This document shows positions 1 to 39,414 of a DNA stretch of 64,000 bases, piece by piece. The stretch spans positions 8,990,001 through 9,054,000 of the forward strand of contig NC_043008.1 of the NCBI RefSeq assembly GCF_006345805.1, in the 5' to 3' direction. Below the pieces are notes generated by a model. The model made no database searches. It saw only the letters and a list, made by a program, of their open reading frames with translations, and was not told where the DNA came from. The position numbers and the translations under genes were made by a program. How positions within the stretch are numbered: the first letter of the stretch is position 1; the number at the start of each line of letters is the position of its first letter. The DNA comes from Octopus sinensis. Taxonomy: Eukaryota.

Positions 1-3000
1 ACATCACAGCAAGGAAAGGTAACATCACAGCAAGGAAAGGTAACATCACAGCAAGAAAAGGTAACATCACAGCAAGAAAAGGTAACATCACAGCAAGAAA
101 AGGTAACATCACAGCAAGAAAAGGTAACATCACAGCAAGAAAAGGTAACATCACAGCAAGAAAAGGTAACATCACAGCAAGAAAAGGTAACATCACAGCA
201 AGGAAAGGTAACATCACAGCAAGGAAAGGTAACATCACAGCAAGAAAGGTAACATCACAGCAAGAAAGGTAACATCACAGCAAGAAAAGGTAACATCACA
301 GCAAGAAAAGGTAACATCACAGCAAGGAAAGGTAACATCACAGCAAGAAAAGGTAACATCACAGCAAGAAAAGGTAACATCACAGCAAGAAAAGGTAACA
401 TCACAGCAAGAAAAGGTAACATCACAGCAAGGAAAGGTAACATCACAGCAAGAAAAGGTAACATCACAGCAAGGAAAGGTAACATCACAGCAAGGAAAGG
501 TAACATCACAGCAAGAAAAGGTAACATCACAGCAAGGAAAGGTAACATCACAGCAAGGAAAGGTAACATCACAGCAAGAAAAGGTAACATCACAGCAAGG
601 AAGGAAAGGTAACATCACAGCAAGAAAAGGTAACATCACAGCAAGAAAAGGTAACATCACAGCAAGGAAAGGTAACATCACAGCAAGAAAAGGTAACATC
701 ACAGCAAGGAAAGGTAACATCACAGCAAGAAAAGGTAACATCACAGCAAGAAAAGGTAACATCACAGCAAGGAAAGGTAACATCACAGCAAGAAAAGGTA
801 ACATCACAGCAAGAAAAGGTAACATCACAGCAAGAAAAGGTAACATCACAGCAAGAAAAGGTAACATCACAGCAAGAAAAGGTAACATCACAGCAAGGAA
901 AGGTAACATCACAGCAAGAAAAGGTAACATCACAGCAAGGAAAGGTAACATCACAGCAAGAAAAGGTAACATCACAGCAAGGAAAGGTAACATACAGCAA
1001 GGAAGGAAAGGTAACATCAGCAAGAAAGGTAACATCACAGCAAGGAAAGGTAACATCACAGCAAGAAGAAAAGGTAACATCACAGCAAGAAAGGTAACAT
1101 CACAGCAAGAAAAGGTAACATCACAGCAAGAAAAGGTAACATCACAGCAAGAAAAGGTAACATCACAGCAAGAAAAGGTAACATCACAGCAAGGAAAGGA
1201 AGCATCACAGCAAGAAAGGTAACAATCACAGCAAGAAAGGTAACATCACAGCAAGAAGGTAACATCACAGCAAGAAAAGGAAACATCACAGCAAAAAAGG
1301 TAACATCACAGCAGAAAAGGTAACATCACAGCAAGAAAGGTAACATCACAGCAGAAAAGGTAACATCACAGCAAGAAAAGGTAACATCACAGCAAGAAAA
1401 GGTAACATCACAGCAAGGAAGGTAACATCACAGCAAGAAAAGGTAACATCACAGCAAGGAAAGGTAACATCACAGCAAGAAAAGGAAACATCACAGCAAG
1501 AAAAGGTAACATCACAGCAAGAAAAGGTAACATCACAGCAAGAAAAGGTAACATCACAGCAAGAAAAGGTAACATCACAGCAAGAAAAGGAAACATCACA
1601 GCAAGAAAAGGTAACATCACAGCAAGAAAAGGTAACATCACAGCAAGAAAAGGTAACATCACAGCAAGAAAAGGTAACATCACAGCAAGAAAAGGAAGCA
1701 TCACAGCAAGAAAAGGTAACATCACAGCAAGAAAAGGTAACATCACAGCAAGAAAAGGTAACATCACAGCAAGGAAAGGTAACATCACAGCAAGAAAAGG
1801 TAACATCACAGCAAGGAAAGGTAACATCACAGCAAGGAAGGTAACATCACAGCAAGCAAGAAAAGGAAAACATCACAGCAAGAAAAGGTAACATCACAGC
1901 AAGAAGGTAACATCACAGCAAGAAAAGGTAACATCACAGCAAGGAAAGGTAACATCACAGCAAGAAAAGGTAACATCACAGCAAGAAAAGGTAACATCAC
2001 AGCAAGGAAAGGTAACATCACAGCAAGAAAAGGAAACATCACAGCAAGAAAAGGTAACATCACAGCAAGAAAAGGTAACATCACAGCAAGGAAAGGTAAC
2101 ATCACAGCAAGAAAAGGTAACATCACAGCAAGGAAAGGTAACATCACAGCAAGAAAAGGTAACATCACAGCAAGAAAAGGTAACATCACAGCAAGAAAAG
2201 GTAACATCACAGCAAGAAAAGGTAACATCACAGCAAGAAAAGGTAACATCACAGCAAGAAAAGGTAACATCACAGCAAGAAAAGGTAACATCACACAGCA
2301 AGAAAGGTAACATCACAGCAAGGAAAGGTAACATCACAGCAAGGAAGGTAACATCACAGCAAGAAAGGTAACATCACACAGCAAGGAAAGGTAACATCAC
2401 AGCAAGAAAAGGTAACATCACAGCAAGAAAAGGTAACATCACAGCAAGGAAAGGTAACATCACAGCAAGAAAAGGTAACATCACAGCAAGAAAAGGTAAC
2501 ATCACAGCAAGAAAAGGTAACATCACAGCAAGAAAAGGTAACATCACAGCAAGGAAGGTAACATCACAGCAAGAAAAGGTAACATCACAGCAAGGAAAGG
2601 TAACATCACAGCAAGGAAGGTAACATCACAGCAAGAAAGGTAACATCACAGCAAGGAAAGGTAACATCACAGCAAGGAAAGGTAACATCACAGCAAGAAA
2701 AGGTAACATCACAGCAAGGAAAGGTAACATCACAGCAAGAAAGGTAACATCACAGCAAGAAAAGGTAACATCACAGCAAGGAAAGGTAACATCACAGCAA
2801 GAAAAGGTAACATCACAGCAAGGAAAGGTAACATCACAGCAAGAAAAGGTAACATCACAGCAAGAAAAGGTAACATCACAGCAAGGAAAGGTAACATCAC
2901 AGCAAGAAAGGTAACATCACAGCAAGAAAAGGTAACATCACAGCAAGAAAAGTAACATCACAGCAGAAAAGGTAACATCACAGCAAGGAAAGGTAACATC

Positions 3001-3555
3001 ACAGCAAGGAAAGGTAACATCACAGCAAGAAAAGGTAACATCACAGCAAGGAAAGGTAACATCACAGCAAGAAAAGGTAACATCACAGCAAGGAAAGGTA
3101 ACATCACAGCAAGGAAAGGTAACATCACAGCAAGAAAAGGTAACATCACAGCAAGGAAAGGTAACATCACAGCAAGAAAAGGTAACATCACAGCAAGAAA
3201 AGGTAACATCACAGCAAGAAAAGGTAACATCACAGCAAGAAAAGGTAACATCACAGCAAGAAAAGGTAACATCACAGCAAGAAAAGGTAACATCACAGCA
3301 AGGAAAGGAAGCATCACAGCAAGGAAAGGTAACATCACAGCAAGGAAAGGTAACATCACAGCAAGGAAAGGTAACATCACAGCAAGAAAAGGAAACATCA
3401 CAGCAAGAAAAGGTAACATCACAGCAAGGAAAGGTAACATCACAGCAAGAAAAGGTAACATCACAGCAAGAAAAGGAAGCATCACAGCAAGGAAAGGTAA
3501 CATCACAGCAAGGAAAGGTAACATCACAGCAAGAAAAGGAAGCATCACAGCAAGG
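1..3555. repeat. 21-bp minisatellite/VNTR, consensus GGTAACATCACAGCAAG(A/G)AAA, roughly 170 units, runs off the window start
   Basis: Directly visible tandem array. Main variants are AAGAAAAGG vs AAGGAAAGG; minor variants are GGAAAC and GGAAGC. Scattered small indels occur mostly between ~990 and ~2960. Confidence 0.98.
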
Positions 3556-3864
3556 GGTCAGGATTTCTCTATAAATAAGATCCATTGCATCCACTCACAA
3601 TGGCTTCCGAGTACGAATCTTGCCATCTGTGCTGTAATGTGTTCACGCAAAAACTGTTAAATTTCAAATATAGACTTATGCGTACAGCTCAGTAGGATTT
3701 TACGGTGTCAAACCTATTTTTGAGTGTGTCTTGAAAAACACTTAGTACTTTGCTGACTTCCCCAAGATATGTAATCTTGAAAAAATATGGAGACTGAGAG
3801 CTTACGACTTGATGAGATTCAATTATCTTATTAGTAACACTTGTTTCCTTTCTATTTTCCTTAG

Positions 3865-36630: not shown

Positions 36631-36735
36631 GCACATTCTGTTGTGTCTGGGGAGAGTCATTTTCTTTTTCGGTGAGTGTGTTAAATAATAAGGCACAAAA
36701 AGAAAATGACTCTCCCCAGACACAACAGAATATGC
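36631..36735. repeat. Near-perfect inverted repeat: 35-bp perfect arms, 27-nt loop
   Basis: ATTCTGTTGTGTCTGGGGAGAGTCATTTTCTTTTT (36635-36669) is the exact reverse complement of 36697-36731. Confidence 0.95.
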
Positions 36736-36864
36736 TTCAACACACGAACTCATATAAAGAATCTTGCGAACCAAATCCAAAAACGAAATTATAGGGCACG
36801 TTTCATCATAAAAAGATGGACGAAAGATAAAAAGAACAAAATAAAGTCATAAACTTGGTAAATA

Positions 36865-37305
36865 GAATCCTTTCTGTTATAGGTACAAAGCCTGTAATTT
36901 ATGGGTAAGGGCCAGTCGATTATATTGTCCCCAATGCTCAACTGGAACTTAATTTATCGACCCCGAAAGGATGAAAGGCAAAATCGACCTCGGCGGAATT
37001 TTAACCCAGGACGGACGAAATGCTGATAACTAAACGTTTTGTCCGGTGTGCTAACGGTTCTTATTTCTTTATTGCCCACAAGGGGCTAAACACAGAGGGG
37101 ACAAACAAGGACAGATAAAGGGATTAAGTCGATTACGTCGACCCCAGTGCGTAACTGGTACTTAATTTATCGAACCCGAAAGGATGAAAGGCTAAGTCGA
37201 CCTCGTAAACGACTTCGGCGGAATTTGAACTCAGAACGTAAAGACGAAGGAAATGGTGCTAAGCATTTTGTCCCTCGTGCTAACGATTCTGCCAGGTCAA
37301 CGCCT
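36865..37305 (-). mobile_element. Two adjacent SINE family B copies
   Basis: CCCGAAAGGATGAAAGGC...CGGCGGAATTT at ~36960 and ~37175. Confidence 0.88.
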
Positions 37306-37776: not shown

Positions 37777-37811
<35 letters not shown>

Positions 37812-37846
37812 ACAACAGCAGCAGCAACAGCCGTTCAAGAATTTGG

Positions 37847-37921
37847 ACCTGGAGATCTCCATTTCCAGTGACTTCGAGGGCCACCTCCCGGTGGTGCCAG
37901 GTGTCAACGAAGAGCCCTCGA
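37847..37921 (+). ncRNA. Candidate HDV-like self-cleaving ribozyme (minimal, lacking P4), probably the 5' end of a non-LTR retroelement
   Basis: P1 ACCTGGA/GCCAGGT (6 of 7 pairs), P2 TCGAGGGC/GCCCTCGA (8 bp), P3 ACC/GGT with L3 TCCCGGT, and J4/2 C-GAA, in the exact nested double-pseudoknot order. Confidence 0.6.
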
Positions 37922-38077
37922 CTACAACAAGACAACCAAAGTTTTTTCTTTTTCCAAGGTCTGGGGTCTCCCGCCCCTAAGCCCTAGACCATCTCCTAAT
38001 CACCCTTACCCGTCTTGTTGCTTAACAACAACAACAGCAGCAGCAGCAGTAGCAGCAGTAGCAGTAGCAGTAGCAGC

Positions 38078-39105: not shown

Positions 39106-39414
39106 ACTCTTTTACTCTTTTACTTGTTTCAGTCATTTGACTGCGGCCATGCTGGAGCACCGCCAATAATAATGATAATCCTTTCTACTAGAAGCACAAG
39201 GCCTAAATTTCTTTTTCTTTTTTTTTTGGTGGGTGGGGTGGGCACTATATTCAGTTACATCGACTCCAGTGTTTCGCTGATACTTAATTTATCGACCCCG
39301 AAAGGATGAAATGCAAAGTGGACTTCAGCAGAGTTTGAACTCAGAGTGTGCAGGAGGACGAAATGCCGCTAAGCACTATGCCTGGCATCCTAACGATCCT
39401 GCCAGCTCGCTGTC

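What the first reader, a model, noticed from the sequence alone, without database searches (positions are those of the whole stretch)
37847..37921. Minimal HDV-like ribozyme fold lacking P4, stranded between microsatellites
Seen: P1 5' ACCTGGA (37847-53); P2 5' TCGAGGGC (37874-81); P3 ACC / L3 TCCCGGT / GGT (37883-95); P1 3' GCCAGGT (37896-902); GTCAA; putative catalytic C37908 followed by GAA; P2 3' GCCCTCGA (37914-21). Established: this is the element order of the HDV/CPEB3/R2-type nested double pseudoknot, and ACC-UCC...U-GGU closely resembles P3/L3 of retrotransposon HDV-like ribozymes, which cut the 5' ends of R2- and RTE-type elements. Inference: this is a P4-less ribozyme heading a cephalopod retroelement or short non-autonomous repeat, with a second 9-bp hairpin downstream (GGTCTGGGG/CCCTAGACC). 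This copy has an A-G mismatch in P1 and a 1-bp P1.1, so it may be partly decayed.
Basis: partly seen in the sequence, partly recalled or inferred. Interest (0 to 1): 0.75.

Follow-up and report, generated by a model that had tools for sequence, protein, structure and literature searches.

The report
Self-cutting RNA with split first stem
This stretch is one worn copy of a 200-base jumping repeat present more than a thousand times in this animal genome; its front end is predicted to fold as a hepatitis-delta-type self-cutting RNA that likely cuts the element free, and its first stem is predicted to be split by two inserted hairpins, a layout that the usual ribozyme searches would miss.

Summary
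The HDV-like core is real and beyond chance (P2, P3/L3, one-pair P1.1, C37908-GAA, no P4). The stretch heads a ~196-bp non-coding retroposon (37830-38023, AAC tail, ~14-bp target-site duplications; at least 1,124 copies). Copies start at G37830: 96 of 100 loci picked by core or tail. In the family majority, the P1 3' strand has seven Watson-Crick partners only as 37830-32 plus 37869-72. Two abutting hairpins lie between, forming a four-way junction inside P1. This fold is the constrained minimum-energy structure (pair probabilities 0.96 or more) and arose in 1 of 50,000 shuffles. P4-less and retroposon-heading HDV ribozymes are known; I found no P1 split by a junction in ten literature searches. 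Not shown: cleavage, covariation (copies too alike) and the partner LINE (not found). The window copy has five decay changes and is probably weak or dead.

The parts
37830..38023 (+). Body of a ~196-bp non-coding retroposon copy
   Evidence: 40 of 40 scored matches at 93-100% over the full length, 910 first-look candidates; boundaries
37830..37832 (+). P1a 5' strand; G37830 is the element's first base and the predicted G1 (cut 5' of it)
   Evidence: pairs with 37900-02; G-C in 77 and G-U in 11 of 90 copies at the first pair; 16 of 28 informative duplications end exactly before it
37833..37848 (+). Hairpin A inserted in the P1 5' strand (6 bp, 37833-38/37843-48)
   Evidence: MFE of window copy; pair probabilities 0.71-1.0; the two commonest non-CpG variants turn its U-G into C-G or U-A
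37849..37868 (+). Hairpin B inserted in the P1 5' strand (8 bp, 37849-56/37861-68), abutting hairpin A and P1b
37869..37872 (+). P1b 5' strand, pairing with 37896-99; four Watson-Crick pairs in the family, one A-C mismatch in this copy
   Evidence: 73, 73, 85 and 80 of 90 copies Watson-Crick at the four pairs; probabilities 0.96-0.99 in copy L050, 0.00 in the window copy
37873..37873 (+). J1/2 linker, 1 nt (2 nt if the terminal U-A pair of P2 frays)
   Evidence: sequence; inference
37874..37882 (+). P2 5' strand (8 bp plus C37882-G37912)
   Evidence: 77-85 of 90 copies Watson-Crick at each pair
37883..37895 (+). P3 (3 bp) and 7-nt L3 with U37886, C37888 and G37891
   Evidence: family L3 has A at 37890 (67 of 90 share one loop), the window copy G
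37896..37902 (+). P1 3' strand, continuous across the junction
   Evidence: three of the window copy's five changes fall here
37903..37907 (+). G37903 (single P1.1 pair with C37888) and a 4-nt linker in place of P4
   Evidence: C-G in 84 of 90 copies
37908..37911 (+). J4/2 with the predicted catalytic C37908
   Evidence: C in 86 of 90 copies, 38 of 42 among tail-picked copies; role inferred from HDV-family position
37912..37921 (+). P2 3' strand with bulged A37913
37925..38020 (+). 3' domain: outer stem 37925-33/38012-20 enclosing a T-rich tract (37942-53) and the hairpin 37958-67/37981-90; likely the part recognised by a partner reverse transcriptase
   Evidence: MFE of window copy and three other copies; function inferred
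38024..38035 (+). (AAC)n tail
   Evidence: seen in the copies printed
37811..37829 (+). Candidate target-site duplication, matching 38030-48 with one mismatch; low complexity, so uncertain
   Evidence: sequence; family median 14 bp

Best explanation
The stretch is the head of a short non-coding retroposon whose copies begin at G37830, and the source element's RNA likely cuts itself there with a P4-less HDV-like ribozyme whose P1 is predicted to be split 3+4 by two hairpins forming a four-way junction. Inferred cycle: a source copy is transcribed inside a host polymerase II transcript; P1a (37830-32/37900-02) stacks on P1b (37869-72/37896-99) to give a 7-bp P1, with hairpins A and B stacked on each other beside it; C37908 catalyses the cut 5' of G37830; the freed ~200-nt RNA is bound at its 3' domain by an unidentified LINE protein and reverse-transcribed from a nick where the AAC tail anneals to CAA/CAG-like target DNA, leaving ~14-bp duplications. 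Shown: the family, its ends, tail, duplications and the complementarities. Predicted: the fold. Inferred: cleavage, stacking, partner. The window copy is a decayed insertion.
For: Sharp 5' end at G37830: BLAST alignments start within the first 3 nt in 29/30, 19/20, 29/30 and 19/20 loci picked by core or tail (a few loci are shared between sets). Contigs of four public runs show loose ends at the same base (107, 98, 8 and 19 contigs). Duplications end at offset 0 in 16 of 28 informative cases, at -1 or -2 in 5, at +2 to +6 in 7, none near +17 (89 of 117 copies uninformative). Shuffles of the 44-nt leader: 293 of 50,000 give a Watson-Crick split partner starting at base 1, 1 of 50,000 with two abutting hairpins as well; 0 of 200,000 mononucleotide shuffles. 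No tRNA head (0 genes in 5 loci) and a run of 5 or more T in 112 of 117 copies argue against polymerase III. Active precedents: one-pair P1.1 in L1TcRz (PMC3185411, passages); P4-less theta ribozymes (bioRxiv 2023.06.13.544163); non-autonomous ribozyme-headed SIDEs (PMC3414825, abstract).
Against: No cleavage data and no raw RNA reads. No covariation inside the family: cells changed on both sides number 1 (P1a, paired), 2 (P1b, 1 paired), 4 (hairpin A, 0 paired), 3 (hairpin B, 0 paired); copies are only 4.8% from the majority. The shuffle test was framed after seeing the fold, and with G-U allowed a split partner is common (7,125 of 50,000). J1/2 is 1 nt; a 1-nt spacer gave little activity in Agam-2-1, which has a 12-bp P2 (PMC4908430). 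A non-pseudoknotted fold of -32.8 kcal/mol that pairs the catalytic C is the unconstrained MFE. P4-less silkmoth R2 RNA cleaved only about 1% in vitro (PMC3774820). No Rfam HDV or CPEB3 match. Partner LINE not found.
Confidence: 0.6

Rival explanations
1. Same ribozyme and same cut at G37830, but only the 3-bp P1a matters; the two hairpins and 37869-73 are an ordinary structured J1/2, and the four extra pairs are optional.
For: A 4-nt P1 R2 ribozyme (jewel wasp Nv) cleaves up to 32%, and a quarter of R2 P1 stems have mismatches at the top (PMC3774820). Leaving 37869-73 unpaired gives a 5-nt linker and removes the 1-nt J1/2 problem. In the window copy only P1a is predicted to form.
Against: The four pairs are all Watson-Crick in the family majority, meet hairpin B with no spare base, and add about 5 to 7 kcal/mol in the model.
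Confidence: 0.17
2. The head is a ribozyme relic or an internal polymerase II promoter (like Pr77); the 5' end is set by transcription start and the RNA does not cleave in this family.
For: Pr77 is both promoter and ribozyme, with the same start (PMC3185411); several SIDER ribozyme folds were inactive (PMC4035085, passages); a strong competing fold exists.
Against: All helices and C37908 are intact in the majority state of a family that spread to thousands of sites; a relic would be expected to have lost pairs before spreading (inference).
Confidence: 0.2
3. One reading: contiguous P1 from 37847-53, cut 5' of 37847.
For: 6 of 7 pairs in the window copy.
Against: 3 Watson-Crick pairs in the family majority; pair probability 0.00; matched by chance in 42% of shuffles; no copy set or duplication ends there.
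Confidence: 0.03

Closest known systems
L1TcRz/Pr77 of L1Tc and non-autonomous NARTc (PMC3185411, passages and sections 5 and 12 seen; PMC4035085, passages seen)
   Same: HDV-like fold at the exact 5' end of a short non-coding retroposon; 3-bp P3; single-pair P1.1; the primers printed in the paper show the same spacing from the J4/2 C to the P2 3' strand.
   Different: L1TcRz has a contiguous P1 and a P4, and its partner LINE is known; here P1 is split by two hairpins, P4 is absent, the tail is (AAC)n and the partner is unknown.
R2 SIDEs and R2/R1 hybrid SIDEs (PMC3414825, abstract seen); silkmoth P4-less R2 ribozymes (PMC3774820, passages seen)
   Same: Ribozyme head joined to a LINE-type 3' end; the hybrids show that head and tail can come from different LINEs; P4 can be absent in an animal retrotransposon.
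   Different: These are rDNA-specific; extra sequence sits in J1/2 (23 to over 700 nt), and the passages seen describe P1 as one 6-7-bp stem.
Minimal HDV-like and theta ribozymes (bioRxiv 10.1101/2023.06.13.544163, first part and passages seen; Riccitelli 2014 not read)
   Same: No P4; active with Mg2+; inactivated by C to U at the first J4/2 position.
   Different: Found in gut phages next to tRNAs, about 56 nt, short J1/2, contiguous P1.
drz-Agam-2-1 with the J1/2 domain P1.2 (PMC4908430, parts 1-2 of 4 and passages seen)
   Same: A peripheral structured domain between the cleavage site and P2 that could speed folding.
   Different: P1.2 lies after a complete P1; here the domain lies within the P1 5' strand, between pairs 3 and 4.

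Membership tests
HDV-like ribozyme | Strand order of the nested double pseudoknot with P2 and 3-bp P3 | tested here: met
   77-87 of 90 copies Watson-Crick at each P2 and P3 pair; 0 of 100 shuffled windows
HDV-like ribozyme | Contiguous 6-7-bp P1 starting at the cleavage site | tested here: not met
   From the element's first base only 3 contiguous pairs; 7 pairs only as 3+4 around a 36-nt insert
HDV-like ribozyme | L3 with U, C and G at the core positions and a 1-2-bp P1.1 | tested here: met
   U37886, C37888, G37891; C37888-G37903 in 84 of 90. Position numbering by analogy is recalled; the base before the G is A in this family, which I could not check against mutagenesis data
HDV-like ribozyme | Catalytic C opening J4/2 with A two bases on | tested here: met
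   C37908 in 86 of 90; 38 of 42 in copies picked by the tail, so not forced by the search pattern
HDV-like ribozyme | J1/2 long enough to join P1 and P2 | tested here: inconclusive
   1 nt, or 2 if the end pair of P2 frays; 1 nt was poor in Agam-2-1
HDV-like ribozyme | Covariation of the helices | tested here: inconclusive
   0-4 double-changed cells per helix among 90 copies; no diverged relative found
HDV-like ribozyme | Mg2+-dependent self-cleavage 5' of G1, lost on C to U | not testable with these tools
   needs a bench assay
Rfam HDV and CPEB3 ribozyme families | Score against the covariance models | tested here: not met
   no such family at E up to 10 for the window copy or L050; none of the 28 RF00622 loci matches the repeat
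Bipartite non-autonomous LINE derivative (SIDE, NARTc, mini-Vingi type) | Short, non-coding, precise 5' end, simple-repeat tail, target-site duplications | tested here: met
Bipartite non-autonomous LINE derivative (SIDE, NARTc, mini-Vingi type) | Ends homologous to an autonomous LINE | tested here: inconclusive
   none of 50 tail-picked or 51 core-picked copies runs into LINE sequence; no match to the LINE loci sampled; only the top 150 candidates are scored per search
tRNA-derived polymerase III SINE | tRNA-like head and no internal T-run terminator | tested here: not met
   ARAGORN 0 genes in 5 loci (it can miss decayed heads); T-run of 5 or more in 112 of 117

The most novel reading that the evidence does not exclude
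A natural, active HDV-like ribozyme whose P1 helix is assembled from two separate 5' segments through a perfect four-way junction, with the inserted two-hairpin domain replacing both P4 and the J1/2 domain as the stabiliser; such ribozymes are invisible to descriptors that demand a contiguous P1 and may head other retroelements now thought to lack one.
Probability: 0.45. Interest if true: 0.72.

Novelty: new variant of a known kind. Interest (0 to 1): 0.55.

Why it matters
In the papers I could see, extra structure in HDV-like ribozymes sits in J1/2 or P4, and P1 is one stem that fixes the cut site. A working ribozyme with a four-way junction inside P1 would widen the fold's known tolerance, show that structure-based screens have a blind spot, and offer a new place to graft aptamers or tags. 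It is cheap to test: a 92-nt RNA, with natural intact copies in hand. The rest (a P4-less HDV fold heading a mini-retroposon) is a further example of a known kind.

Tried and rejected
Rfam scans of the region and of L050: only miRNA-type and chance hits; seven LINE loci gave no match at gathering score. Partner LINE hunt, all negative: RT family (20 loci extended), RTE endonuclease query (20 loci), 2A-bearing LINE query, PF14529 (20 loci), Dong-like endonuclease fragment, CPEB3 model, a decayed 56-aa endonuclease fragment in G000 (itself plus 2 weak hits) and in the protein collection (none). Clade labels for these LINEs are recalled from protein and tail features, not from a call. A variant 3' continuation seen in run contigs had 0 matches in G000. 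Twelve copies picked for changed P1 3' strands showed, by eye, no pattern of compensating change at the 5' end. Sequencing runs: no RNA holder listed and only contigs available; two layings showed mostly CpG-type changes and no shared divergent loose end. A contiguous-P1 descriptor over LINE loci missed the RTE heads and hit one coding-region look-alike family and a few AT-rich stretches, so descriptor hits alone are weak. A degenerate search of G000 for diverged relatives of the core was not run, so their existence stays open. Ruminski 2011 and one review were not held.

Full report
Observation. The core alone (P2 of 8 Watson-Crick pairs, 3-bp P3, 7-nt L3, G after the P1 3' strand, C-N-A, P2') occurs once in the window and in 0 of 100 locally shuffled windows. 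Rfam gives no HDV-type match at E up to 10.

The repeat. A search of G000 (2.72 Gb) with 37830-38025 gave 910 candidates; all 40 scored match at 93-100% over nearly the whole length. A core pattern has 784 exact matches and a tail pattern 1,124, both with reversed controls of 0. Six of the first 30 tail loci also match the core pattern, which points to about 3,900 copies with wide error. Copies end in (AAC)n. Alignments start within the first 3 nt of the element in 29 of the first 30 core loci, 19 of 20 further core loci (hand-picked, 12 of them for variant P1 strands), 29 of the first 30 tail loci and 19 of 20 further tail loci. Three tail loci are split by another repeat but keep the same start. 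Of 117 copies examined for target-site duplications, 62 were low-complexity, 23 had none, 4 were short; of the 28 left, 16 end exactly before G37830, 5 one or two bases earlier, 7 run 2-6 bases in, none reaches 37847; median 14 bp. Contigs from four public runs have loose ends at the same base. The flanking microsatellites are thus target plus tail (69 of 120 upstream flanks are period-3). There is no tRNA head and a T-run of 5 or more in 112 of 117 copies, which by established knowledge would stop polymerase III.

Which P1. The window copy differs from copy L050, which carries the majority letters, at five sites: 37869, 37890, 37897, 37899, 37902. The majority P1 3' strand (GUCGGGC) is instead exactly complementary to the element's first three bases (GCC, 37830-32) followed by 37869-72 (CGAC). 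The 36 nt between fold into two hairpins of 6 and 8 bp that abut P1a, each other and P1b with no unpaired base: a perfect four-way junction. Forty-eight of 90 copies keep all seven pairs (G-U allowed), 29 with Watson-Crick only; the 42 tail-picked copies give 23 and 13. Dinucleotide shuffles of the 44-nt leader give a Watson-Crick split partner from base 1 in 293 of 50,000 and with two abutting hairpins in 1 of 50,000; with G-U allowed the partner alone is common (7,125 of 50,000), and the test is post hoc. The key independent point is that this P1 puts G1 on the element's first base, as in L1Tc and Drosophila R2 (PMC3185411; PMC3774820). In the window copy P1b carries an A-C mismatch and is predicted not to form (0.00), while P1a does (0.83-0.89); P1 mismatches are linked to lost activity in R2, so this copy is probably weak or dead. 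Only 13 of 90 copies keep every pair of the model and the C, as expected of neutral decay after insertion.

What is missing. Copies are 4.8% from the majority and changes are mostly C to T and G to A. Double changes are too few to test covariation, and most do not restore a pair in the two hairpins (0 of 4, 0 of 3). The two commonest non-CpG variants (19 and 12 of 90) both turn the U-G of hairpin A into a Watson-Crick pair, which is weak support. The window copy itself has a C-G to U-A change in P1b, but both sides are CpG sites and the pair is not enriched in unbiased copies. J1/2 is one base; Webb et al. saw little activity with a 1-nt spacer in a ribozyme with a 12-bp P2 (PMC4908430). An unknotted fold of -32.8 kcal/mol competes. 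No raw RNA reads were available. No partner LINE was found among four RTE-like, three CR1/L2-like and one Dong-like family, or 2A-bearing LINEs; these labels are recalled, and each search scores only its best 150 candidates.

Mechanism. Most likely (0.6): release of a unit-length RNA from host transcripts by self-cleavage at G37830 with the split P1, then target-primed reverse transcription by a LINE protein that reads the 3' domain and AAC tail. Cleavage at G37830 by either fold is therefore about 0.77.

Comparison with what is known. Ribozyme-headed non-autonomous retroposons are known (NARTc, PMC3185411, passages and two sections; SIDEs, PMC3414825, abstract; Kojima 2018, PMC5786205, passages, lists RTE, Ingi, Vingi and R2 as sources of bipartite elements). 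P4-less HDV folds are known in phages (theta ribozymes) and in silkmoth R2. Earlier notes of this scan describe P4-less heads on mini-Vingi repeats in other genomes; they are unchecked leads, and none of three look-ups found this sequence or a split P1. Ten paper searches, of which 47, 79 and 82 asked for a junction or insert in P1, found no description of it; for PMC6765202, PMC4758252, PMC13708176 and PMC4035085 I saw passages, for PMC9901934 only the listing. The library lacks most subscription papers; Ruminski 2011, Webb 2009 and Riccitelli 2014 were not read, figures and supplements were not seen, and Repbase and Dfam could not be searched, so a drawn example or a named repeat family may exist.

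Verdict. Works like an HDV-type 5'-end ribozyme of a retroposon; fails the contiguous-P1 feature of the family as usually defined; new variant of a known kind, untested at the bench. Interest 0.55.

Noticed in passing
L315-L342 around 1500-1590 (G000 loci): Two old, decayed repeat families start with CPEB3-like ribozyme heads with a contiguous P1: 28 hits at E up to 10, 2 over the Rfam cut-off. L319 and L320 share 424 bp at 67%, and L319 continues into what reads as a broken endonuclease frame (Vingi-like by recall). Unrelated in sequence to the finding's repeat.
   Followed up: partly
L146:1516-1640 and related loci among L161-L184: An RTE-like LINE family whose full-length copies mostly start at a 7-bp contiguous P1 with a G-U first pair, an HDV-like head read by eye; not scored by Rfam.
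   Followed up: partly
L200, L205, L210 5' ends (RTE-like family): The 5' end forms a 7-bp stem closing two hairpins, followed by further hairpins; not HDV-like by my descriptor, possibly another ribozyme class.
   Followed up: no
L154, L159, L211-L240: LINEs with an N-terminal 2A-like motif occur only on small unplaced contigs (none of the 150 listed matches on C1-C30), which may be DNA of a second organism in the assembly. L159:5340-5270 (minus strand) has an HDV-like strand order without an obvious catalytic C.
   Followed up: partly
window 36634-36732: A near-perfect 99-bp palindrome that scores against many miRNA models below their cut-offs and recurs in a few other loci; probably a small inverted-repeat transposon.
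   Followed up: no
window 37925-37933 with 38012-38020: The bases just after the ribozyme pair with the bases just before the tail (9-10 bp in four copies folded), closing the whole 3' half into one domain across the T-rich tract.
   Followed up: partly
window 36850-37300 and 39250-39400: Copies of another very abundant short repeat family flank the element; the same family interrupts copies L035/L092 and L085.
   Followed up: no
window 233-3600: A long tandem array with a unit of about 21 bp.
   Followed up: no
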